From Candidatus Nanoarchaeia archaeon (GTDB lineage: Bacteria; Patescibacteriota; Microgenomatia; Woykebacterales; RBG-16-39-9b): 50,868 nt of DNA. Below are positions 43,201-50,868 of this stretch, piece after piece; positions within the stretch are counted from its first letter, which is position 1; every line of letters starts with the position of its first letter. The notes under the pieces were generated by a model. It was not told where the DNA came from. It worked only from the letters and a program-made list of their open reading frames with translations, and ran no database searches. The stretch is from assembly GCA_036514715.1 (NCBI GenBank), contig DATBWR010000006.1:1-50868 (forward strand), written 5' to 3'. The translations under genes and the position numbers were made by a program.

Positions 43201-43617
43201 TTACTTTTCCTTCATCCTTTTGGCCCCGTATAAGCTACGGCCCTGCTTACGACTGGCCACGCCGCTGGTATCGTAATGACCGCGAATAACATGATACTTT
43301 ACTCCCGGCAAATCCTTGACTCGGCCGCCTCTTACTAAAACAATGGAGTGTTCCTGCAATTCATGGCCAATTCCCGGAATGTAGGCAGTCACCTCTTTCC
43401 GGTTGGAAAGGCGAACACGGGCAACTTTCCGCAGAGCCGAATTTGGTTTTTTCGGAGTCATGGTTTTGACGATCACGCAAACTCCCCGTTTTTGCGGGTT
43501 GAAAGTGGCAACCGGCCGGCGTTCCCTAGTGTTGAAACTGGAACGCAAGGCAGTAGCCTTAATTTTTTTAGCAGCGTGTGTACGTCCCTTACGGACTAAT
43601 TGTGCAATTGTAGGCAT
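43201..43617 (-). CDS. rpsL: 30S ribosomal protein S12
   Basis: [11 protein letters not shown] and [12 protein letters not shown] motifs. Confidence 0.99.
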
Positions 43618-43629
43618 AGTACGTGGAGA

Positions 43630-43735
43630 ATTATAACCTTCTTAGGTTACAAGACCCGAAGGGGATTATACCATTTCTGACGGTACAAGCGCCCTGAACG
43701 AGGGTGATTATATCTGGAGTGAGCCTAACTGTCAA
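43630..43735 (-). promoter_or_regulatory. str operon promoter: canonical TTGACA-17-TATAAT plus two tandem hairpin -10 elements
   Basis: TTGACA at 43735-43730 and TATAAT at 43712-43707; CTTGTA...TATAAT units at 43665-43689 and 43630-43653. Confidence 0.8.
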
Positions 43736-43771
43736 CAGCTTTAGTATGGAAAATCTGTCAGGGAAAGTTTT

Positions 43772-43927
43772 TTAGTCTTCTTTACTTGTTTGGGAAACTG
43801 ATTTGCTAAAAATGCGCCGGCACATTTGGCAGCGGTAGGTAACAGTGGTAGACAGGGTAGCCGCAGGCACTACGGATAAATCTTTGGAGTTACAATAAGG
43901 GCATTTAACTTCAACTTCGTCGGCCAT
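43772..43927 (-). CDS. 51-aa zinc-ribbon protein
   Basis: Not in the track. MADEVEVKCPYCNSKDL...YRCQMCRRIFS; ATG directly follows the upstream TAA. Confidence 0.7.
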   Translation of the reverse strand: MADEVEVKCPYCNSKDLSVVPAATLSTTVTYRCQMCRRIFSKSVSQTSKED

Positions 43928-43993
43928 TTACTTTTTCTTGTCTTTCTTGGGTTTTTTAACTTCGCGTTTCTGCTTGCCTTGGGAATGGGCCAT
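43928..43993 (-). CDS. 21-aa Lys-rich microprotein
   Basis: MAHSQGKQKREVKKPKKDKKK, tightly packed between the GIY-YIG gene and the zinc-ribbon ORF. Confidence 0.45.
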   Translation of the reverse strand: MAHSQGKQKREVKKPKKDKKK

Positions 43994-43998
43994 AAGAA

Positions 43999-44247
43999 TT
44001 AGTTCTTTAACTTTATCATATTTAGCTTATTCTTGCGGGATAAATTTTTAATTCGGGCTTCTTCTTTGGAAGCAATCGAGCGGTCAACAAATTCTTTGGA
44101 AAAAGTAAGTTTTACCGGTCTGCGACCGCGGGTATATCTGGAACCCAAATCCGAAGAATTATGCTCGGCTACTCTGCGGACTAAATCAACGGTAATTCCA
44201 GTATAAAGCGTTCCGTCAGAACATTTGAGAATATAAAGATAGTACAT
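43999..44247 (-). CDS. GIY-YIG nuclease (YhbQ/UPF0213-like)
   Basis: YYLYILKCSDGTLYTGIT.DL.RR...H...YTRGRRPV...EARIK. Confidence 0.92.
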   Translation of the reverse strand: MYYLYILKCSDGTLYTGITVDLVRRVAEHNSSDLGSRYTRGRRPVKLTFSKEFVDRSIASKEEARIKNLSRKNKLNMIKLKN

Positions 44248-44287
44248 ATTTATTTTTTATTCTTGTTTGGAAAATCTGTCAAGAAAT

Positions 44288-44665
44288 TTAACGGGTGTGT
44301 TTTTTAATCCACTCGGTAATTTTTTCAATAGTTGGCTTCTTGTTTTCCACCCACAGCGCAAAATCAACAATTTCTTTATTTTCAGCTTCAAATTTTCTGT
44401 CGTTCAAAATTAGAAACTCGATCATACAAACTGTGGCAGTTCTCTTGTTACCATCGGCGAACATATGGTTAAGCAAGAGTGAGTGGGTTAAGGCAGCTGC
44501 TTTTAACTCTAAACTCGGGTAAAGATCCTCATCGCCAAAGGTAGCTTGAGGACGCGCGGCTGCCGATTCCAATAACCCTAAATCGCGCAAACCGTGCAAA
44601 CCACCAGTGGCTTCAACTATCTCAAAATGGATTTGAATAATATCCTGCGGAGAAAGATATCTCAC
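44288..44665 (-). CDS. Death-on-curing (Fic/Doc) toxin
   Basis: GLRDLGLLESA..RP and HMFADGNKRTA motifs. Confidence 0.92.
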   Translation of the reverse strand: MRYLSPQDIIQIHFEIVEATGGLHGLRDLGLLESAAARPQATFGDEDLYPSLELKAAALTHSLLLNHMFADGNKRTATVCMIEFLILNDRKFEAENKEIVDFALWVENKKPTIEKITEWIKKHTR

Positions 44666-44670
44666 AGTCG

Positions 44671-44919
44671 CTACTTATTAGCAAGTTCTTCCAAAGCCGG
44701 GCGGTATTGCTTGATAATTTTTTGTGTAAGGTCGTGAATTTCACGATCAACAGCACCAATGGAAGCTTGGTTTTTGGTGTTTTTAGAGTTTTTTTGAATA
44801 TGCTCTTCAAGAGCACGGTTAACCACCGCTTGCAAAGTGGTGTCTTGCTCAAGCGCCTCAAGTTCAGCACTTTTTTTGAGGTCTGTATCTATTCTTAAAG
44901 TGGTTTTAACTAGTTTCAT
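44671..44919 (-). CDS. Ribbon-helix-helix-type antitoxin
   Basis: KTTLRIDTDLKKSA...LQAVVNRALEE, directly upstream of doc; start set at ATG 44919. Confidence 0.75.
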   Translation of the reverse strand: MKLVKTTLRIDTDLKKSAELEALEQDTTLQAVVNRALEEHIQKNSKNTKNQASIGAVDREIHDLTQKIIKQYRPALEELANK

Positions 44920-44926
44920 AAAAACT

Positions 44927-44950
44927 ATCTTGCCATAAATATGGCAAGAT
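44927..44950. promoter_or_regulatory. Probable TA operator palindrome
   Basis: ATCTTGCCAT-AAAT-ATGGCAAGAT between a minus-strand TTGACA and the antitoxin ATG. Confidence 0.7.
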
Positions 44951-45009
44951 GTCAAGTGTGGATTGAGGGTGTGGAAGTGTAGGAATTTTAGGGTTGTTTG
45001 GAAAATCTG

Positions 45010-45393
45010 TCAAGAAAAGTATTTAGCTAACCTTTTATCAAAAGTTTTGAAAGATCTAGCTTTTTTGCTTTTGGCAAAGGCCAAATTGTAGCAATCTTCT
45101 AAGCTTAAGTTGCTGCCCGCAAACATTTTCAGGGCGGTTTTCAATATCTCATGCTCCTCGAGAAAAATAAACTCCATTTCCAGAATCTGCTCTAGAGTAC
45201 TGGCCGTATCTGGCTTGTTTTGTTTGTAAAAAGAGCTCAAAACCCAGTAGATTTCGAAGTAAACAATAATCGAGGTAAAAAGTTTGACTCTGCCTTCGGC
45301 AGCTTGGCTAAAAAGGCTCTTAACTTCCTGAAACTGCCCCTTATTATCAGCCAAGAGAAATCTTAGAAAAAAATTGGTATCGACAAAGATCAT
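45010..45393 (-). CDS. PIN-domain (VapC-like) toxin
   Basis: IFVDTNFFLR, E, SLEDC and TFDKRL motifs. Confidence 0.9.
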   Translation of the reverse strand: MIFVDTNFFLRFLLADNKGQFQEVKSLFSQAAEGRVKLFTSIIVYFEIYWVLSSFYKQNKPDTASTLEQILEMEFIFLEEHEILKTALKMFAGSNLSLEDCYNLAFAKSKKARSFKTFDKRLAKYFS

Positions 45394-45647
45394 TTCCTGC
45401 TTTTGGCGGTAAAGTATTCGGCTTTTGATTCTTCAATGATTGCTTCTAGGTCTTTGCCTTTCCAAGCAGTCGGCATTTTCAGGGAACCCGCAAGGTGCTC
45501 CACTAGACTAATGGCCGGGGTGATTACCAAGCGGTTTTTTTCTTGTGAAATGATAACCTTCTTATTTTTATCAAGGTTAGCAGCTTTGAAAAGTTTAATA
45601 GGTATGGTGATTTGGCGTTTGCCGGTAATAGTAGCGACTTTGTTCAT
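45390..45647 (-). CDS. AbrB/MazE-type antitoxin
   Basis: ATITGKRQITIP motif; ATGA overlap with the PIN gene. Confidence 0.88.
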   Translation of the reverse strand: MNKVATITGKRQITIPIKLFKAANLDKNKKVIISQEKNRLVITPAISLVEHLAGSLKMPTAWKGKDLEAIIEESKAEYFTAKSRK

Positions 45648-45681
45648 ACAAGGAGATTGTATCTAAACAATTCATCTCTGT

Positions 45682-45715
45682 CAATTCAAGGAATTTATTT
45701 TATTTCCTTGAATTG
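45682..45715. promoter_or_regulatory. Probable operator of the AbrB-PIN operon
   Basis: 12-bp inverted repeat CAATTCAAGGAA / TTCCTTGAATTG. Confidence 0.65.
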
Positions 45716-45771
45716 GTGGTAATTAACTGAGAGTATGTGGTGGTGAGAATAGGGTTGGTTTGGAAAATCTG

Positions 45772-46241
45772 TTAAGAAATCGGCACAAGTGTTAACAAAA
45801 CAATCTCTGTTTTGAAATATTTTTCTATTCCGGAAAAAAACCCTTTTTGGTTTTCCTGTAGTTTATCCCTTGGACCCTTAACCTCCACAAAGAAAAACTT
45901 TTTATCTTTATAAACAAATAAATCCGGTGGTTGGGTACGGTTAGTTTTTATTTGGGACCTTAAGAAGTTAATCCCTTCGGTACCAATTAACTTCTCTAAC
46001 AACCCCAGTTTCCTTTTGTGGGGTTGGTAGATATACTGCTCAATTAAAACATTAAAGCCCAAGCCAAAATAGTGAAGAGCGGCTATCCATTCATAAAAAT
46101 GAAATTGCGGTTGGGAAAGAGCAATTCTTAAATCTTCTTCGTCAAAAAGGTCAGGGTATTCTCTCTTCCATTTAATGAGTAGTTTTCCAGAAGTCCATTC
46201 TTGTTTGAGAGTGGGTCAAAGAGAAGTTCTTCATTTTTCAT
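45772..46241 (-). pseudogene. VRR-NUC domain nuclease with a frameshift near the 5' end
   Basis: PPDLFV...FFVEVKGPRDKLQENQ motif. The catalytic frame is open from about 46215, but ATG 46241 is out of frame (span 3n+2). A TTGACT-17-TAAAAT promoter lies upstream. Confidence 0.7.
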
Positions 46242-46284
46242 TCGGAGGGATTTTAGGCCTGTTTGCCTGAAGAGTCAAGGTAAA

Positions 46285-46312
46285 AGATATATGAATAGTC
46301 ATTCACATATCT
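46285..46312. repeat. Palindrome AG-ATATATGAAT-AGTC-ATTCACATAT-CT (copy 3 of 4)
   Basis: One mismatch; abuts the junction repeat at 46317. Confidence 0.8.
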
Positions 46313-46566
46313 TTAGGTTTGGAAAAGGTGTCAAGAAGTTTAATTCTTAGGAATTTCTGGAAGAAAAAAGCGGCAAGAGGTCTTTTATAAACATTTGCTA
46401 AGTCTCTTAGTTGAGGGATTGAAACTTTTGCATCACCGTTTTCTATCTTATCAATAAATTCTTCAGAGACTTTTAGTCTAGAGGCAACTTCAGACTTACT
46501 TTTATTAAAACTTTCTCTTGCCCACTTTAAAAGGTTTGAATTTATTTTTGCTTCAATATTAGGCAT
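46303..46566 (-). pseudogene. XRE/HTH regulator N-terminal fragment (likely truncated XRE-ImmA/IrrE fusion)
   Basis: LLKWARES...VASRL...IENGDAKVSIPQLRDLANVYKRPLAAFF; the ORF then reads through the junction repeat into the palindrome. Confidence 0.65.
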
Positions 46567-46684
46567 AAACGGAGTTTACTATTTTACTATTTTGTCTACA
46601 ACGCTACTAAGTATAATCTATACTCTCATTTTCTCTCTAAATTAATCCGTAAGGTTGTAAACCCTTTGGTCAACTTTAATATTA

Positions 46685-47786
46685 TTAAAAACTGGAAAAA
46701 CCAAAATCCTCACCAACCGGTTTGAGTCGATCGTCCCCTACCATCGCCACTCCAATTTTCAAACTGTTAATAAAACTTACGTATCTATTGTCTTGCGGTG
46801 TTTGTGAAGGAACAATTAATTTATGTTTTTGGTCAAAGTTTAGGCTATTGTCTTCTGCAAATTTCTGAACATCAAAATATTCATATTCAAATAGCTGGGC
46901 AATTCCTTTCCGTGCTTGAGTTCGGAAATTGTTATTTTCCGTACTCTTTACCTCGAAAAGAAACGCATTTTTATCGTTGTGAGCAAACAGGTCAACAGTT
47001 CGGCTGTTACGGGTATCGTAACCGTGTTTTCTAAACAAATCTATGAGTTGTTGGAGAATTGACTGGTGCGTTAAGTTTGCACGGTCAAGAATTTCATTGT
47101 CGCGAATATACTGCGAAGTAGGCTCACGAATAACTCTAGTTTTCACACTATCGAAAATCTTCAATGTGTCTGCGTAACGCAAGGCTTCATCTGCATTTTT
47201 AATCTCGTACGACTGTCTGTCAGCTTCCTCAATTTTTAAGCCTAGCTTGAGTCTAGACGAGTCAACATTTTCATAACCAGAATAAAGATAAAGTGGTCTT
47301 TTGTCGAAAAGTATTTTATTTGAGACTTCCGGTCTGACCGAGGAAAAACTTCCCATTTTTGGGAACTCTGGAATTTGGCCTAAGGGGATGTAGTTTTCAA
47401 GTAATTTGTCGACTAGTATCGTTGTTTCTGCAGTATTTTGTGATGTCGGGTTTTGCCATGTGCTAGGATCAGGTAATTCGCTGAAAAGGTAAATTTCTGA
47501 AAGTGGTACTAGAAGTGGCCAACGATTTGTATTGTTAACAGTTTCGTAAAACCATAATGGGTTCTTCTTTTCAGAAAACCCTGGTCCTACAACACCCAAT
47601 CCTATGATGCCTGATCTCGCGTTTTTAAACGCAGAATTTTGGGTGCTGTGAATAAAGAATATATCATCCGGCCTTATTCTTATCCACTGGTCTCTTAACT
47701 CCTCTTGTAACCCCCACGTCATGTATTTTACGGCTGTTAACCAATGTTCCGGTGGTCCAGTAAATCTAAAAAAGCTCTTTTTTCAT
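46685..47786 (-). CDS. Putative EVE/PUA-like plus PD-(D/E)XK nuclease fusion with a 5' homopolymer frameshift
   Basis: N-terminal WG...W..IRPDDIFFIH and C-terminal VDLF...LFEVKS...IAQLFEY. The track ORF starts at 47722, but the frame is open to about 47782 and ATG 47786 is off by one at A6/T6 runs. Confidence 0.55.
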
Positions 47787-47811
47787 AATATAGAATCAAA
47801 ATCCATAATAT

Positions 47812-48489
47812 TTAACTAGTTTCAAAAAGCTGTGGTTTTACACTCGCAAAACTAAAGTAATTGTCACCAGCAACAATAATATGATCTAGTATATTAATAC
47901 CTAAAACTTGCCCAGCGTTAATTAATTGTTTAGTAACAGTCTCATCTTCTCTACTTGGTGATACATCTCCTGATGGATGATTATGAGAGATAATGATCTG
48001 AGCAGCTACGTGTTTCACTGCTGGCTCAAATACTTCCCTTGGGTGTATAAGGTTAACATTTAGCGAACCTACCGCTATAGTTTCCCGCTTAATTTCTTGG
48101 TTACGTGTGTCAAGAAAGAAAACAATAAAATGTTCTTTTTTATTATCTCGTATATCTTTTAACTCTTCCCAAACATCCTTTGGTGTAAGAATCAATGAAG
48201 TTTGCTTATTTTTCAGCAGTCGACGAGCTAATTCAAAGCTAGCCACAATACTTGAAGCTTTAGCACTTCCCAAACCGAAGGTACCTTTTAACTCTTTTAC
48301 GTCGGCAATTGAAAGATTGTTGCCAGCAAATTTATGAAGTATTTTTCTTGAGAGTTCAATCGCGTTTAATTCTTTAGTACCTGAACCTACTAGAATGGCC
48401 AAAAGCTCAGAATTAGATAGTTTTTCTGGGCCGTATTTCTCTAACTTCTCTCTAGGCCTCTCAATTTTCGTAAGCTCTTTAATCTTCAT
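47812..48489 (-). CDS. radC: RadC/JAB domain protein
   Basis: RPREKL, LIHPREVF and SHNHPSGD...PSRED...LDHII motifs. Confidence 0.95.
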   Translation of the reverse strand: MKIKELTKIERPREKLEKYGPEKLSNSELLAILVGSGTKELNAIELSRKILHKFAGNNLSIADVKELKGTFGLGSAKASSIVASFELARRLLKNKQTSLILTPKDVWEELKDIRDNKKEHFIVFFLDTRNQEIKRETIAVGSLNVNLIHPREVFEPAVKHVAAQIIISHNHPSGDVSPSREDETVTKQLINAGQVLGINILDHIIVAGDNYFSFASVKPQLFETS

Positions 48490-48493
48490 ATAT

Positions 48494-48871
48494 TTAAAGT
48501 TTATTATATTTCGTGTGCTTTCCCTTCGCTTTTTTGACTGGGTATTTTTTCTCGTTTATCTTCTGTTTTTTGTTGAACTCTTTAACAATATCTATCTCTA
48601 AATCGTGGCTTATTAAGAGAATCCAATATAAAACATCTGCCAACTCTTCACCAATCTCGCTTTTGTGTTTCTTCACATAATCTTCAATTTCCTGAGTATT
48701 TTTCCACTGAAAATGCTCCAAAACTTCAGCTGCTTCCAAAACCAAGGAAAGTGCGGTGTCTTTCGGGTTGTGAAACTGCCGCCAATCTCTGGCGTCCCGA
48801 AACTTGATTATTTTTTCTTGTAGATCCTTTATTGTCTGGGTTGTTTTATTCATAAGGAAGCTGAAATTCAT
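48494..48871 (-). CDS. MazG-like nucleotide pyrophosphohydrolase
   Basis: FRDARDWRQFHNPKD...EAAEVLEHFQW...EELADV motif. Confidence 0.92.
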   Translation of the reverse strand: MNFSFLMNKTTQTIKDLQEKIIKFRDARDWRQFHNPKDTALSLVLEAAEVLEHFQWKNTQEIEDYVKKHKSEIGEELADVLYWILLISHDLEIDIVKEFNKKQKINEKKYPVKKAKGKHTKYNKL

Positions 48872-49079
48872 CCATCAAAGCGTCGTAAAGGTTATCTTTT
48901 TCTTTAAAAATGGGTCTTAATTTTGCGTATTTATTCCAAATATCTTCTACAAAAAGTTCAATTGCTTTGGCACTTGTTTCCGAAACATGTAACTTAAATT
49001 CTCTTGCCAGGGCCTTTATTAACGACAATTTACTTATAACAGGGCCGTTTAAAATTTCTTCAACTGTTGGTTCTTCCAT
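48846..49079 (-). CDS. Hypothetical protein
   Basis: 77-aa ORF co-oriented and tightly packed. Confidence 0.55.
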   Translation of the reverse strand: MEEPTVEEILNGPVISKLSLIKALAREFKLHVSETSAKAIELFVEDIWNKYAKLRPIFKEKDNLYDALMDEFQLPYE

Positions 49080-49082
49080 AAC

Positions 49083-49382
49083 TTAAAAAACTTTCTTGTA
49101 ATAAAGGTTACTTATGGGATCTCCAATCAAACTCCCTAAAATACCCTCTATTTTTAGTAACAATCTCTTGTCTTCAGATCTAATGCTTGCACTTACTTCA
49201 GAACCACGCTTTGTTTTACAAAGAAGTTTTAGGGCTTTCCCATGGCTCCCAATTTCGGTTCCGTTGAGAAAAATATTGTTCCATCCACTTTCCATATCAT
49301 CAATATTAGTTCCACCAAAACCGCTGGGTAATTTAAGCAGGCCTTCTCTTTTAAGATCATTAAGACTTCTTTTTGGTTCCAT
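49083..49382 (-). CDS. Hypothetical protein
   Basis: 99-aa ORF with TGG-TATAAT upstream at about 49411-49419. Confidence 0.55.
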   Translation of the reverse strand: MEPKRSLNDLKREGLLKLPSGFGGTNIDDMESGWNNIFLNGTEIGSHGKALKLLCKTKRGSEVSASIRSEDKRLLLKIEGILGSLIGDPISNLYYKKVF

Positions 49383-49487
49383 AAAAACCTACTTTTCATT
49401 AGGCACGCGGATTATACCACCAAGCAGGCTAAAAATCTAACCTACTGACAGGTTGGCGAATGTTATAGGACAAAGATTAACTTTTTA

Positions 49488-49724
49488 TTAAACTGGGGTG
49501 AGGAATTGTTCTTTAATCTTCTCGGGGAGATTCTTAAGTGAGGTATTGAAGTTTTTTGAGGCCTCAAAGATTTCCAGGTAAACCGGTTTATCGGCCTTAT
49601 CCACATGCATAATTGCATGAGGCTCCACGTCAAAGGAATCATCAACTTTTTCTTTGGAGAAGAAAACGTTTAAAACATCTTCCTCAGGTTCATATTTTAT
49701 TTCTAACACGTCAAGGTTTTGCAT
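49488..49724 (-). CDS. DUF2283 family putative antitoxin
   Basis: IKYEPEEDVLNV...LEIFEAS pattern. Confidence 0.8.
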   Translation of the reverse strand: MQNLDVLEIKYEPEEDVLNVFFSKEKVDDSFDVEPHAIMHVDKADKPVYLEIFEASKNFNTSLKNLPEKIKEQFLTPV

Positions 49725-49968
49725 AGCGGCCTTTCCTGGCTACATGAAAGGTAATTACCGAAATTATATCATCTCTAACCTCATACACAACCCTTAACAC
49801 GTGGTCTTGGTCTATTGATTTTATGGCTGTTGGTTGATGATATTTAGTTTGCCCTTGAAATTCCGGGTTATTTATCGCGCCTTCTACCAAATCTAAACTT
49901 ATATCCCAACCTAGTTCTCTCAAGAATTCTTGTTTATTAAGAGCGTGTCTTGTAAAGGTAACCTTCAT
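49711..49968 (-). CDS. DUF4258-like (RelE/BrnT-fold) putative toxin
   Basis: FTRHAL...LRVVYE...VITF; overlaps DUF2283, toxin-first order. Confidence 0.75.
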   Translation of the reverse strand: MKVTFTRHALNKQEFLRELGWDISLDLVEGAINNPEFQGQTKYHQPTAIKSIDQDHVLRVVYEVRDDIISVITFHVARKGRYAKP

Positions 49969-50036
49969 CTATTCTGATTTTACAAGGTTGGCAGCTAAAA
50001 TTCGACTTTTTAGACTGATCCCTTGTTTATTAGCTT

Positions 50037-50249
50037 TTGTGGAGTACACTTGAAAGAGTGACTGAAAACGTTAGTAATTTTATTTCTTTTCATAACGCCA
50101 ACATAATCAGCACGGACTTAACCGCAAGCTTTGAAACTCTTTCTGCTTTTGCGGCCAAAAAATCCATCGCCTTAGACGATCTCTCCATAGAAAAGCACCG
50201 CCTGCCTTTCATCAACTGGCTCACCGGCCTGGTTAGTCCCCAAATCTAA
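50037..50249 (+). pseudogene. Possible gene fragment
   Basis: 70-aa ORF with no clear start context, opposite to the island orientation. Confidence 0.25.
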
Positions 50250-50291
50250 ATTACTAAGTAAAATAAAGATTAGTTTTGATTATTAGATAAA

Positions 50292-50315
50292 ATATATGAA
50301 TAGTTATTCATATAT
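50292..50315. repeat. Palindrome ATATATGAAT-AGTT-ATTCATATAT (copy 4 of 4)
   Basis: Perfect 10-4-10 inverted repeat, followed by TATTTGTCTTG as in copy 1. Confidence 0.85.
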
Positions 50316-50389
50316 TATTTGTCTTGTGGAAAAAGAAAAGCGGCTTGGTGTATAGAACATCAAACCGCCCTGAGTTTGGCGTGTCTCCT

Positions 50390-50836
50390 TTAAACCTCGA
50401 CGACCGATACACGTGCGCTGCCAATCCGATCGAGTAGGTCACCCAGACCGTGGCCCGTTGTGGTGATGATTTTGTAACCGGCTCGGAACGCAACTGTGTC
50501 AGCATCCCAGAGATCGAAATGATCGCGGATCGAAGTCCAGAACATCCCGCGTATGACGGTGGCCTTACTTTGTAAATCCGCGAACTTGACTTTTGCCTCG
50601 TCCCGTTCGGCCTTACTAACAGCTAGTGTGGAGCTTGACTTCGCTACCACGGCACCATGGGCCAAAAGGCGCCAGAGGGTAAGGAGTACTTTCTGGTCAT
50701 CGGTCATCTCACCAACGACCTTCTCTGTCTCCTCGTCGACTTCCCCATCGGGCTGATAGAGGTTCCTCTCGATCTCCTCCTGCGTGTAGGGGACTTTGAA
50801 CGGCAGATGCTCCACCAAAGAACTGGTCATTACCAC
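50390..50836 (-). CDS. Hypothetical protein, GC-richer, strong SD
   Basis: 148-aa ORF preceded by AAAGAAAGGAG. Confidence 0.65.
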   Translation of the reverse strand: MVMTSSLVEHLPFKVPYTQEEIERNLYQPDGEVDEETEKVVGEMTDDQKVLLTLWRLLAHGAVVAKSSSTLAVSKAERDEAKVKFADLQSKATVIRGMFWTSIRDHFDLWDADTVAFRAGYKIITTTGHGLGDLLDRIGSARVSVVEV

Positions 50837-50868
50837 TTGTCTCCTTTCTTTGAACTATTAGAGGCGGG

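What the first reader, a model, noticed from the sequence alone, without database searches (positions are those of the whole stretch)
43744..46566. Integron-like cassette array delimited by a conserved 21-bp junction repeat upstream of rpsL
Seen: TTCTTGACAGATTTTCCAAAC (minus strand) recurs five times at intervals of about 521, 731, 762 and 559 bp. Each interval holds one co-oriented module: [GIY-YIG + microproteins], [RHH-Doc], [AbrB-PIN], [VRR-NUC], then a truncated XRE gene. Upstream genes end at the repeat: the PIN TGA and VRR-NUC TAA lie inside it, the doc stop is 2 nt away, and the XRE gene is cut there. The repeat starts with TTGACA, and one copy has TAAAAT 17 nt later. However, the conserved part is the spacer, which promoters normally do not conserve, and the TA and VRR-NUC modules have their own promoters or operators. 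There is no attC structure, and no integrase lies in the window. Established: integron arrays and tandem att-site islands accumulate TA and defence cassettes. Inference: iterative site-specific insertion at a non-tRNA att site next to the str promoter, possibly an undescribed cassette-capture system in CPR.
Basis: partly seen in the sequence, partly recalled or inferred. Interest (0 to 1): 0.8.

Follow-up and report, generated by a model that had tools for sequence, protein, structure and literature searches.

The report
Reused promoter repeat joining accessory-gene modules
Five near-identical copies of a 21-24 bp promoter-like sequence sit at every junction of a small toxin-antitoxin and nuclease gene array just upstream of rpsL in a Woykebacteria-like (CPR) bacterium. 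Relatives carry the same junction core between differently ordered modules, so it is best read as a reused promoter that also marks recombination joints, not an integron.

Summary
(T)TTCTTGACAGATTTTCCAAAC occurs five times on the minus strand (43744, 44265, 44996, 45758, 46317) and nowhere else in 50.9 kb.

- **What the repeat is.** It is a sigma-70-type promoter family: TTTCTTGACA, 17 nt, TAAAAT, then ATG 6-9 nt later. Its -35 hexamer contains the TGA/TAA stop of the preceding gene.
- **Relatives.** Related contigs L102, L103, L107, L092 and L093 carry the same about 12-nt core at junctions between homologous modules (AbrB-PIN, Doc, PDDEXK, CYTH, GIY-YIG). The module order differs between contigs. 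PIN and Doc families natively end in ...TTT/ATT TCT TGA.
- **Core versus spacer.** The core is equally conserved within and between genomes (0.80 vs 0.83). The spacer is genome-specific (0.69 vs 0.35, permutation p<1e-4).
- **Flanking pairs.** AbrB-PIN is flanked by a direct pair of the element in three genomes. R5 and R1, which bound the whole array, look like sister copies.
- **What is absent.** There is no attC-like hairpin, no integrase in the window, and no exact copy in the public scans.

Best reading: a propagated promoter whose copies are the joints at which small modules are inserted, excised and shuffled. The enzyme is unknown. "Integron-like" is supported for the modular architecture, but membership fails. 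Array decay is visible: a truncated XRE gene, a disrupted VRR-NUC gene, and a foreign 10-nt remnant at the doc 3' end.

The parts
43744..43765 (-). R1, a degenerate copy (TTCCCTGACAGATTTTCCATAC). It lies 8 nt upstream of the rpsL -35 and has no -10 at 17 nt.
   Evidence: It is a sister of R5: both share the left flank AAACTT, a 4-5-nt spacer deletion and CTAAAG.
44265..44286 (-). R2, the probable native promoter of GIY-YIG. The -35 is at 44277-44282, the -10 (TAAAAA) at 44254-44259, and the ATG at 44247, which gives a leaderless-type geometry.
   Evidence: CCAAAC(AAG) lies at the same distance from the GIY-YIG ATG in L093 (13/18 identity to R) and in L098. The left flank CACCCGTTAA matches the 3' end of the 177-aa gene in L093.
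44996..45017 (-). R3. It contains the PIN stop (TGA, 45010-45012). It forms a full promoter, TTGACA-17-TAAAAT (45013 to 44985), upstream of the RHH-like antitoxin and doc.
   Evidence: 11/12 consensus. The PIN 3' end ...KYFS/KYFP is native to the family. The orthologous PIN-R junction is present in L102.
45758..45779 (-). R4 (TTAACA variant). It contains the VRR-NUC stop (TAA). TATTCT lies 18 nt downstream. It pairs with R3 to flank AbrB-PIN.
   Evidence: R4 and R3 share ...CCAAAC(C)AACCCTA... beyond the 21-mer.
46317..46338 (-). R5, a degenerate copy (CTTCTTGACACCTTTTCCAAAC) lying inside the tail of the truncated XRE ORF. It has no -10 at 17 nt.
43707..43735 (-). rpsL promoter, TTGACA-17-TATAAT.
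   Evidence: 12/12 consensus. It is conserved in L091, L092, L093 and L097.
43772..44247 (-). Module 1: GIY-YIG (43999-44247), a basic microprotein MAHSQGKQKREVKKPKKDKKK (43928-43993) and a 51-aa Zn-ribbon protein (43772-43927).
   Evidence: Pfam. The trio is conserved in L098, L093 and L102, and GIY-YIG is fused to the microprotein in several homologues.
44288..44950 (-). Module 2: an RHH-like antitoxin (44671-44919), Doc/Fic toxin (44288-44665) and an operator palindrome (44927-44950).
   Evidence: Pfam Fic 9e-19. Doc and the antitoxin C-terminus are homologous to L102 and L103 at 72-74%.
45010..45719 (-). Module 3: an inverted-repeat operator (45683-45714), promoter (45656-45684), AbrB/MazE antitoxin (45390-45647) and PIN toxin (45010-45393).
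   Evidence: Pfam, promoter 11/12. The homology block has the same edges in L107 (85%), L102 (80%) and L103 (74%).
45772..46278 (-). Module 4: promoter TTGACT-17-TAAAAT (46250-46278) and a disrupted VRR-NUC gene. A 37-aa ORF (46128-46241) is followed by the VRR-NUC domain in another frame, 45772-46062.
46303..46566 (-). N-terminal HTH fragment of an XRE-family gene whose relatives are about 390 aa. The last 15 codons run through R5.
   Evidence: Pfam HTH_3. The best homologues are 380-405 aa and match only query residues 3-72.

Best explanation
The repeat (R) is a member of a lineage-specific family of sigma-70-type promoters that serve small accessory genes in these Woykebacteria-like genomes.

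**Anatomy.** The element reads (A/T)TTTCTTGACA (-35 with a T-rich upstream edge), a 17-nt spacer, TAAAAT, then an ATG 6-9 nt later, so the transcript has no or almost no leader. Genes are packed tightly. The TGA inside TTGACA (TAA in the TTAACA variant) serves as the stop codon of the upstream gene.

**Role in rearrangement.** Many unrelated modules end in, or begin with, the same core. The copies are therefore the places where modules are joined, duplicated, deleted and re-ordered. In the window, one promoter variant (spacer GATTTTCCAAAC) has been copied to five junctions.
- R5 and R1 look like the pair left by placing the whole block next to the rpsL promoter.
- R4 and R3 are the pair flanking AbrB-PIN.
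- R2 is the resident GIY-YIG promoter.

**Mechanism.** The most likely process is recombination between promoter copies: Campbell-type excision and integration of small circles, or unequal exchange. This would be RecA- or short-homology-driven rather than run by a dedicated integrase. Selection would then keep outcomes that preserve a stop codon for the upstream gene and a promoter for the downstream gene.

**Shown versus inferred.**
- Shown: the repeat, its promoter-like anatomy, conservation of the core at module edges in several genomes, genome-specific spacers, and different module orders.
- Inferred: promoter activity, leaderless starts, the recombination mechanism and the order of events.
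For: - **Five copies, non-random, confined to 2.6 kb**.
- **Promoter geometry.** R3 scores 11/12 and R4 9/12 in the consensus scan. R2 has TAAAAA at 17 nt, 6 nt before the GIY-YIG ATG.
- **Same architecture upstream of other genes.** It precedes PDDEXK in L102, L103 and L092, CYTH in L103 and L093, and GIY-YIG in L093 and L098, always with the -10 element 6-9 nt before the ATG.
- **Native gene ends.** PIN homologues at 77-87% identity all end KYFS or KYFP. Doc in L102 and L103 ends ATT TC(C/T) TGA, and PF1765-like ends ATT TCT TGA.
- **Homology blocks end or start at the core.** The AbrB-PIN right edge lies at the PIN stop/-35. The PDDEXK block starts at TTTTCTTGACA in three contigs. The PF1765-MazE-Doc right edge lies in the core.
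- **Gene order differs** among the window, L102, L103 and L107.
- **Core versus spacer.** Core identity is 0.80 within and 0.83 between genomes. Spacer identity is 0.69 within and 0.35 between, permutation p<1e-4.
- **Direct pairs flank AbrB-PIN** in the window, L107 and L102, with different lengths.
- **An imprecise join.** The doc 3' end carries CACCCGTTAA, identical to the end of an unrelated 177-aa gene that precedes an R-like element in L093.
- **No integrase, no attC-like fold**.
- **Precedent.** Promoter reuse upstream of unrelated genes is a described phenomenon (PMC3575422).
Against: - No transcription data exist, so promoter activity is inferred from consensus only.
- R1 and R5 lack a -10 at the right spacing. 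R4, R5 and R1 each sit 8-74 nt upstream of a separate, better promoter, so at least three copies are not needed as promoters.
- Identity drops sharply after 22-24 nt in R2 versus R3. That is unusual for RecA-mediated exchange, which normally needs and leaves longer homology, and fits a site-specific or target-duplicating process better.
- Homogenised genome-specific spacers resemble the species-specific attC sites of chromosomal integrons.
- Only about 53 kb of this genome was visible (the window plus about 2.7 kb beyond it), so a recombinase elsewhere cannot be excluded.
- It is unknown whether the relatives' modules are vertical or horizontally transferred.
Confidence: 0.55

Rival explanations
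1. R is the recombination site of a dedicated, still unidentified site-specific cassette system, analogous to an integron. Small modules would circulate as circles carrying one R and be integrated at resident R sites by a recombinase encoded elsewhere. The promoter-like sequence would be a by-product, or a device that reconstitutes a promoter at each junction.
For: - Identity edges are sharp, and copies R2 and R3 are 100% identical over 24 nt.
- Spacers are genome-specific and homogenised while the core is universal, like species-specific attC sites or the overlap regions of recombinase sites.
- The same core lies at module edges in at least 5 contigs with shuffled order.
- Stop codons sit inside the site, as in many integron cassettes.
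- AbrB-PIN is flanked by a direct pair in three genomes.
Against: - No integrase or transposase domain was found in the window or in any related array locus seen.
- The site has no dyad symmetry or hairpin.
- Direct-repeat length varies between genomes.
- At least one junction lies outside R and looks like a microhomology join.
- R-type elements are stably associated with particular downstream genes (PDDEXK, CYTH, GIY-YIG) across genomes, as ordinary promoters are.
- No exact copies were found elsewhere in the public scans.
- All contigs of this population show one fixed arrangement.
Confidence: 0.22
2. R is an operator. The conserved spacer (GATTTTCCAAAC in this genome) would be the binding site of a lineage-specific regulator, for example a stress or SOS-type repressor, that co-regulates toxin-antitoxin and nuclease genes. 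Within-genome identity would then reflect selection for binding, not common descent of the copies.
For: - The spacer is invariant (TTTTCCA in all five copies), while the -35 hexamer varies in two copies.
- The spacer differs between genomes and is shared within them.
- The genes involved (GIY-YIG, PDDEXK, VRR-NUC, NUDIX, TA modules) are typical damage- or stress-responsive genes, and LexA genes lie near homologous arrays in L103 and L099.
- R2, and the PDDEXK and CYTH promoters, contain CTTG-N14-CAAG.
Against: - Only five sites exist in 50.9 kb, and all lie in one 2.6-kb array.
- Three copies are not at the working promoter of the next gene.
- The dyad is absent from R1, R3, R4 and R5.
- Changing several orthologous sites together with a regulator in each lineage is less parsimonious than copying one site.
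- Sister-copy relationships that extend into the flanks (R5/R1, R4/R3) indicate duplication.
Confidence: 0.15
3. The copies are independent ordinary promoters that converged on the same sequence, and the array is a fixed ancestral gene cluster with no history of insertion.
For: - TTGACA with a T-rich upstream edge is close to the generic consensus, and rpsL promoters in the clade also read TGTTGACAG.
- The PF1765-like gene ends ATC AAC TAA in L093 where L102 and L103 have ATT TCT TGA. That shows such ends could arise by point mutation.
Against: - A spacer of 12-18 nt identical in five copies cannot be convergent.
- The nearest relatives lack the array upstream of rpsL and carry different genes there.
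- Module order differs between genomes.
- GC content drops across the island.
Confidence: 0.03

Closest known systems
Putative mobile promoters / promoter reuse (Matus-Garcia, Nijveen and van Passel 2012; PMC3575422)
   Same: Near-identical promoter sequence lies upstream of unrelated genes within one genome, and related copies occur in other genomes. No associated IS element is present, and how the copies spread is unknown.
   Different: - Here the shared segment is only 22-45 nt; the published screen required at least 50 nt at 80% identity or more.
- All copies are clustered in one co-oriented array.
- The -35 overlaps the upstream stop codon.
- The copies coincide with the edges of modules that are re-ordered between genomes.
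Chromosomal integron cassette arrays and CALINs (attC clusters without an integrase)
   Same: - Small co-oriented modules of 0.5-0.8 kb, rich in toxin-antitoxin genes.
- Each module is followed by a repeat into which the stop codon can extend.
- Repeats are homogeneous within a genome and different between genomes.
- No integrase lies nearby, as in CALINs.
   Different: - The repeat is 21-24 bp (up to about 45 bp with the -10 region) and single-stranded folding shows no structure, whereas attC sites are 55-140 bp imperfect palindromes with R''/L''-L'/R' boxes.
- No IntI, attI or Pc is present.
- Modules carry their own promoters, and the repeat itself is a promoter.
pdif modules of Acinetobacter plasmids (Xer-dependent modules)
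   Same: Small modules, often toxin-antitoxin pairs, are bounded by short (28 bp) sites and found in varied orders. They are moved by a host recombinase that is not encoded next to them.
   Different: pdif sites have an 11-6-11 dyad structure and flank modules in inverted orientation. R has no dyad, and all copies are direct.
Tandem genomic islands at a shared att site (for example at tRNA/tmRNA 3' ends)
   Same: Direct repeats of about 20 bp delimit successive insertions at one chromosomal position next to a conserved gene.
   Different: Such islands are kilobases long and encode (or once encoded) their own integrase, and the repeat is the 3' end of an RNA gene. Here the modules are too small to encode an integrase, and the repeat is a promoter.
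Correia/ERIC-type promoter-bearing miniature elements
   Same: They are short repeated sequences that supply promoters to neighbouring genes.
   Different: Those elements are 100-150 bp with terminal inverted repeats and short target duplications, and they are dispersed genome-wide. R has no inverted termini and is local.

Membership tests
Integron / CALIN | attC sites: 55-140 bp imperfect palindromes (R''-L''...L'-R') that fold as single-stranded hairpins. | tested here: not met
   Both strands of 111-nt stretches around all five copies were folded as DNA. The repeat is unpaired in every fold, with z-scores from -1.5 to +0.8. The only local inverted repeats are the TA operators.
Integron / CALIN | An IntI-type tyrosine recombinase with attI and Pc at one end of the array (not required for CALINs). 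| tested here: not met
   No recombinase, integrase or transposase domain was found in 38 window ORFs scanned against Pfam. None appears in the precomputed Pfam list for the locus and 2.7 kb beyond it. The rest of the genome was not visible.
Integron / CALIN | Co-oriented small cassettes, each bounded by the repeat, with repeats homogeneous within an array. | tested here: met
   Four co-oriented modules of 521-762 bp are present. Spacer identity is 0.69 within genomes and 0.35 between.
Integron / CALIN | Cassette gain, loss and re-ordering between related genomes, with junction sites retained. | tested here: inconclusive
   Module order differs between the window, L102, L103 and L107, with the core at the edges. 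These are different species-level lineages, however. All contigs of the window's own population have one arrangement.
Sigma-70-type promoter | -35 TTGACA and -10 TATAAT-like hexamers, 16-18 nt apart, upstream of a gene. | tested here: met
   R3 scores 11/12 and R4 9/12. R2 is TTGACA-17-TAAAAA. Homologues in L102, L103, L092 and L093 read TTGACA-17-TAAAAT/TAAGCT. R1 and R5 fail, with the -10-like hexamer at 12-13 nt.
Sigma-70-type promoter | Transcription initiates downstream of the element. | not testable with these tools
   No transcriptome data or assay was available.
Putative mobile promoter (PMP, as defined in PMC3575422) | At least 80% identity over at least 50 nt upstream of non-homologous genes in one genome. 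| tested here: not met
   Shared length is 22-34 nt. It reaches about 55 nt with gaps for R4/R3 only. The concept fits, but the published operational threshold is not reached.
Xer/dif-type module (pdif) | A 28-bp site with two 11-bp arms of partial dyad symmetry, with sites in alternating orientation. | tested here: not met
   All copies are direct. There is no dyad, except TTCTTG...CAAGAA in R2 only.
Type II toxin-antitoxin modules | An adjacent small antitoxin and toxin pair with a recognised toxin domain and an upstream operator/promoter. | tested here: met
   PIN scores 4e-15 with AbrB/MazE at 5e-6, and Fic/Doc scores 9e-19. Palindromes overlap their promoters. The Doc antitoxin has no Pfam hit.
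Transposon with a fixed target-site duplication | Terminal inverted repeats and a duplication of constant length. | tested here: not met
   Modules have no terminal inverted repeats. The flanking direct-repeat length differs between genomes: about 16 nt in L102, about 30 nt in L107 and at least 34 nt in the window.

The most novel reading that the evidence does not exclude
The junction element is a promoter-embedded recombination site of an undescribed cassette system in CPR bacteria.

- Each module would carry the left half (gene end plus TTTCTTGACA) at its 3' side and the right half (spacer, -10 and leaderless start) at its 5' side.
- Recombination in the genome-specific spacer would then insert, excise and re-order modules.
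- Every junction would automatically rebuild a working promoter for the next module and a stop codon for the previous one.
- The recombinase would be encoded elsewhere in the genome.
Probability: 0.2. Interest if true: 0.8.

Novelty: new variant of a known kind. Interest (0 to 1): 0.5.

Why it matters
CPR (Patescibacteria) genomes are tiny and poor in classical mobile elements. How they acquire and shuffle defence and addiction genes is largely unknown.

Here a short promoter marks the edges of interchangeable toxin-antitoxin and nuclease modules. It also supplies the upstream stop codon and the downstream leaderless start. This would be a very economical way to build and express accessory islands.

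It also gives a concrete, searchable signature: TTTCYTGACA at gene ends, followed by TAAAAT and an ATG. That signature could be used to map such islands across the clade.

If a dedicated enzyme is behind it, this would be an integron-like system of a new type. If not, it is a clear natural example of promoter propagation driving modular genome rearrangement.

Tried and rejected
- **Exact-motif scans.**
  - Viral contigs gave 5 single hits.
  - GTDB species genomes gave 69 single hits in unrelated taxa, about the chance expectation for an 18-mer in 596 Gb.
  - JGI metagenome contigs gave 9 single hits.
  - No second locus and no multi-copy locus was found.
  - The metagenome scan did not return the source population's own contigs, so absence there is weak evidence.
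- **attC-like structure.** Rejected by folding both strands of all five copies.
- **Integrase or transposase.** None was found in the window.
- **'Fusion' proteins.** PIN+antitoxin (240 aa) and XRE+VRR-NUC (264 aa) in public clusters looked like junction variants. They are gene calls that read TGA as Trp. Contig L006, which carries the same kind of long call, differs from the window at only two bases, neither in the repeat.
- **Strain-level variation.** All 7 contigs shown, out of 13 carrying the identical S12, have the same arrangement.
- **Closest relatives by EF-G (85-89% identity).** L091, L092, L093 and L097 have no R within 5 mismatches upstream of rpsL. Their gene content there differs.
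- **Known RNA families.** Nothing was found in 43300-46800.
- **Phage and plasmid collections.** No DNA similarity to the array was found.
- **PADLOC.** No hit for the island's unknown proteins.
- **Resemblance to Hin/Gin hix sites.** The similarity (TTCTTGA...) was considered from memory only. The dyad is present only in R2 and no serine recombinase was seen, so it was not pursued.
- **CRISPR-like, DUS/USS-like, REP/MITE-like readings.** Rejected on spacing, copy number and lack of palindromes.

Full report
**1.

The 21-mer TTCTTGACAGATTTTCCAAAC occurs five times on the minus strand: 43744-43764 (3 mismatches), 44265-44285 (0), 44996-45016 (0), 45758-45778 (1) and 46317-46337 (2). Spacings are 521, 731, 762 and 559 bp. 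None of 100 shuffles reached five matches. A scan allowing up to 7 mismatches found nothing else better than 7.

Identity covers 22-24 nt (TTTCTTGACAGATTTTCCAAACAA in copies 2 and 3) and then ends abruptly. I number the copies R1 (next to rpsL) to R5.

Pfam confirms most of the modules. They are a Zn-ribbon protein, GIY-YIG, Doc/Fic, PIN, AbrB/MazE, VRR-NUC and an XRE HTH protein. The Doc antitoxin has no hit.

The PIN TGA and the VRR-NUC TAA lie inside R3 and R4. The doc TAA ends 2 nt before R2, followed by an in-frame TGA. The single G-to-A difference in R4 keeps a stop codon.

The same sequence was assembled independently in at least 7 contigs from three data sources. This is therefore not an assembly artefact.

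**2. Setting.**

EF-G places the organism next to Candidatus Woykebacteria, in the CPR.

GC content falls from about 0.45 to about 0.36 across 44-50 kb. The closest relatives with usable contigs have different genes upstream of a conserved rpsL promoter:
- L091 has rpoBC-PPIase-DUF192-rpsL.
- L092 has about 6 kb of other genes.
- L093 has another gene set.
- L097 has NUDIX, a 300-aa gene, a response regulator and then rpsL.

The stretch between the conserved 416-aa/NUDIX genes and rpsL is therefore a hypervariable spot. The R array is the rpsL-proximal 2.6 kb of a roughly 6.5-kb island.

No integrase, transposase or other recombinase domain (apart from RecA) is present in the window or in the 2.7 kb beyond it.

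**3. What the repeat is.**

*GIY-YIG promoter.* Upstream of GIY-YIG, R2 reads TTGACA, 17 nt, TAAAAA, 6 nt, ATG.
- The orthologous gene in L093 has TTGAAAGCGATGCCAAAC, which is 13/18 identical to R. CCAAAC lies at the same distance from the ATG, and TAAGAT lies 6 nt before it.
- L098 has CACCAAACAAGTAAAAT 7 nt before the ATG.

R2 is therefore the resident GIY-YIG promoter region.

*PIN homologues.* These were decisive. Proteins at 77-87% identity are all 127 aa and end KYFS or KYFP, so TAC TTT TCT TGA is the native PIN end.

*Contig L102.* Its PIN is 87% identical. The PIN stop is followed by CACTTTTCTCAAACAAGCCTAAAATTCTCACAA and then the ATG of a PDDEXK gene. This is a full TTGACA-17-TAAAAT promoter that is homologous to R3 through the -10 element. 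In the same contig the core recurs at other gene ends:
- PemK is followed by TTTTCTTGACAC.
- PF1765-like ends ATT TCT TGA CAT.
- Doc ends ATT TCC TGA CAC.

*Contig L103.* Two nearly identical copies, TTTCTTGACACCTCAG(A/G)TCAACAAGCCTAAAAT, precede PDDEXK and CYTH. Doc again ends ATT TCT TGA.

*Other contigs.*
- In L107, TTTCCTTGACACAGTTCAG(T/C)TCGA flanks AbrB-PIN on both sides.
- L092 has TTTCTTGACAGCTTAAACAAGCAGGCATAAAAT before PDDEXK.
- L093 has TTTTTCTTGACAC...TAAGCT before CYTH.

In every productive case the -10 element lies 6-9 nt before the ATG and there is no Shine-Dalgarno sequence. That is the geometry of leaderless messages.

The consensus scan scores R3 at 11/12 and R4 at 9/12. R1 and R5 share a 4-5-nt spacer deletion and have no -10 at the right distance.

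*Conclusion.* R belongs to a promoter family whose -35 hexamer doubles as the stop codon of the preceding gene.

**4. The copies mark module edges.**

Pairwise BLAST gives discrete homology blocks:
- **AbrB-PIN.** Window 45713/45719 to 45008/44983 matches L107 (85%), L102 (80%) and L103 (74%). The left edge is constant, just upstream of the operator. The right edge lies at the PIN stop/-35.
- **PDDEXK.** The block begins at TTTTCTTGACA in L102, L103 and L092.
- **PF1765-MazE-Doc.** The block ends in the core in L102 and L103.

Module order differs between contigs:
- L102: PemK-TA | AbrB-PIN | PDDEXK | PF1765 | MazE-Doc | 429 aa.
- L103: 127 aa | PDDEXK | AbrB-PIN | PF1765 | MazE-Doc | CYTH.
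- L107: Cupin | AbrB-PIN | Phd-YafQ.
- Window: XRE' | VRR-NUC' | AbrB-PIN | RHH-Doc | GIY-YIG-microprotein-Zn | rpsL.

Across 15 elements, the 12-nt core is as similar between genomes (0.83) as within them (0.80). The 14-nt spacer is much more similar within a genome (0.69) than between genomes (0.35), with a label-permutation p below 1e-4. The window, L103 and L107 drive this result; L102 does not show it.

**5. History readable in the window.**
- R4 and R3, which flank AbrB-PIN, share sequence beyond the 21-mer (...CCAAAC(C)AACCCTA..., then a C/A-rich stretch).
- R5 and R1, which bound the whole array, share the left flank AAACTT, a spacer deletion and CTAAAG. They look like sister copies.
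- The doc gene ends CAC ACC CGT TAA ATT TCT TGA. In L102 and L103 it ends CA(C/T) ATT TC(C/T) TGA.
- The extra CACCCGTTAA is identical to the 3' end of an unrelated 177-aa gene in L093. There it is followed by ATTTCCTTGATTTCCAAAG, an R-like element with an indel.
- That junction was therefore made by an imprecise join just outside R. It also shows that R already existed in the common ancestor with L093.
- The XRE ORF matches only residues 3-72 of relatives that are mostly 380-405 aa, so it is an N-terminal fragment.
- VRR-NUC has lost its reading frame upstream of the domain.

The array is thus being built and eroded by insertion, duplication and deletion.

**6. Mechanism.**

*Shown.* There is a promoter-like element with a universal core and genome-specific spacers. 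It sits at module edges in several genomes, and it forms direct pairs around AbrB-PIN in three of them.

*Inferred.* The copies arise when modules are inserted or exchanged by recombination between promoter copies. I favour a process without a dedicated enzyme, such as small circles or unequal exchange, followed by selection for outcomes that keep a stop codon and a promoter. The reasons are:
- Flanking repeat length varies, from about 16 nt to more than 34 nt.
- One junction lies outside R.
- The elements stay with particular downstream genes across genomes, as ordinary promoters do.
- No recombinase accompanies any of the arrays seen.

Several features point the other way and keep a site-specific system alive as a rival at about 0.2:
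- The 24-nt identity of R2 and R3 has sharp edges.
- Spacers are homogenised within genomes.
- Several copies (R1, R4, R5) are not needed as promoters.

An operator reading, in which the spacer is bound by a lineage-specific regulator, cannot be excluded. It explains the flank-sharing sister copies poorly.

**7. Comparison with known systems.**

The architecture resembles a chromosomal integron or CALIN: small co-oriented modules rich in toxin-antitoxin genes, array-specific repeats, and stops inside the repeat. Membership fails on the defining features, because there is no attC structure and no IntI.

It also differs from three other known kinds:
- pdif modules, which have dyad sites in inverted orientation.
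- Tandem att islands, which carry their own integrase.
- Correia/ERIC elements, which have terminal inverted repeats.

The closest described concept is promoter reuse, or 'putative mobile promoters' (PMC3575422). The shared length here is below that study's 50-nt threshold. The coupling of promoter copies to module edges and to stop codons is not part of that description.

Searches of the held literature for Patescibacteria together with integron and attC found only resistome surveys.

**8. Verdict.**

This is a real and unusual local repeat. Its identity as a promoter family is well supported by comparative sequence. Its role as the joint of a shuffling module array is supported by comparison with four related contigs. 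Its enzymology is open.

I rate it a new variant of known kinds (promoter propagation, cassette arrays) with moderate interest (0.5). The cassette-system reading has a probability of about 0.2 and would be of high interest if shown.

**Limits.**
- Only about 53 kb of this genome was visible.
- All relatives are metagenomic contigs.
- No expression data were available.

Noticed in passing
window 45772-46302 (-): The VRR-NUC gene is disrupted. A promoter (46250-46278) and a 37-aa ORF (46128-46241) are followed by the nuclease domain in another frame, preceded by two in-frame TGA codons. The only in-frame start is a TTG at 46062. The sequence is identical in independent assemblies.
   Followed up: partly
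window 44286-44296 (-); L093 6506-6545: The doc 3' end carries CACCCGTTAA, identical to the last 10 nt of an unrelated 177-aa gene in L093. In L093 that gene is followed by an R-like element (ATTTCCTTGATTTCCAAAG). This looks like the footprint of a deletion that fused doc to the end of a lost gene.
   Followed up: partly
window 43928-44247 (-); L098 3935-4440; L093 3487-4631; L102 6288-7414: GIY-YIG (82 aa), a 21-aa lysine-rich microprotein (MAHSQGKQKREVKKPKKDKKK) and a 51-aa Zn-ribbon protein form a conserved trio. In several homologues (P0139, P0143-P0146, P0200) GIY-YIG and the microprotein are one reading frame. In L093 and L102 the order is permuted (microprotein-Zn ... GIY-YIG). The closest GIY-YIG relatives (about 82% identity) are annotated as Paceibacteria or Moranbacteria.
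   Followed up: partly
window 43618-43706 (-); L091, L092, L093, L097 upstream of rpsL: The rpsL leader contains a conserved hairpin, GCTACCT-loop-AGGTAGT, in four relatives. In the window it reads GTAACCT-AAGA-AGGTTAT, which by eye keeps the stem through two paired changes (the automatic alignment counted none). The window's leader is about 25 nt longer. There is no Rfam match. It may be an undescribed ribosomal-protein leader.
   Followed up: partly
proteins P0127, P0129, P0131, P0134; locus L006 gene 2-628: Public protein sets contain artificial 'fusion' proteins from this locus: PIN+antitoxin (240 aa), XRE+VRR-NUC (264 aa) and AbrB+9 aa. They were made by gene callers that translated TGA as Trp on short contigs.
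   Followed up: yes
R2 in the window (44254-44282); L102 1546-1585; L103 5778-5818 and 8212-8251; L092 5725-5764; L093 7079-7117: In the productive promoters of this family the -10 hexamer ends 6-9 nt before the ATG, with no Shine-Dalgarno sequence. This suggests that many small accessory genes in this clade are expressed as leaderless mRNAs.
   Followed up: partly
window 44000-50868 and L001 1-3650: The whole stretch between the conserved 416-aa/NUDIX genes and rpsL is a low-GC island (about 0.36 versus 0.45). It holds RadC, a MazG-like protein, a DUF2283 pair, a 345-aa protein and several small proteins without any Pfam or PADLOC hit. Relatives have unrelated genes at this position.
   Followed up: partly
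window 44263-44288 (-); L103 5775-5800 and 8209-8234; L102 1543-1568: R2 and the PDDEXK and CYTH promoters contain an outer dyad, (TT)CTTG-N14-CAAG(AA). It spans the -35 and the spacer and is absent from R1, R3, R4 and R5. It could be an operator.
   Followed up: no
L102 740-760: A run of nine G lies inside an insertion of about 125 nt that separates the -35 half of an R-like element from the AbrB-PIN module. It may be an assembly oddity or a real insertion.
   Followed up: no
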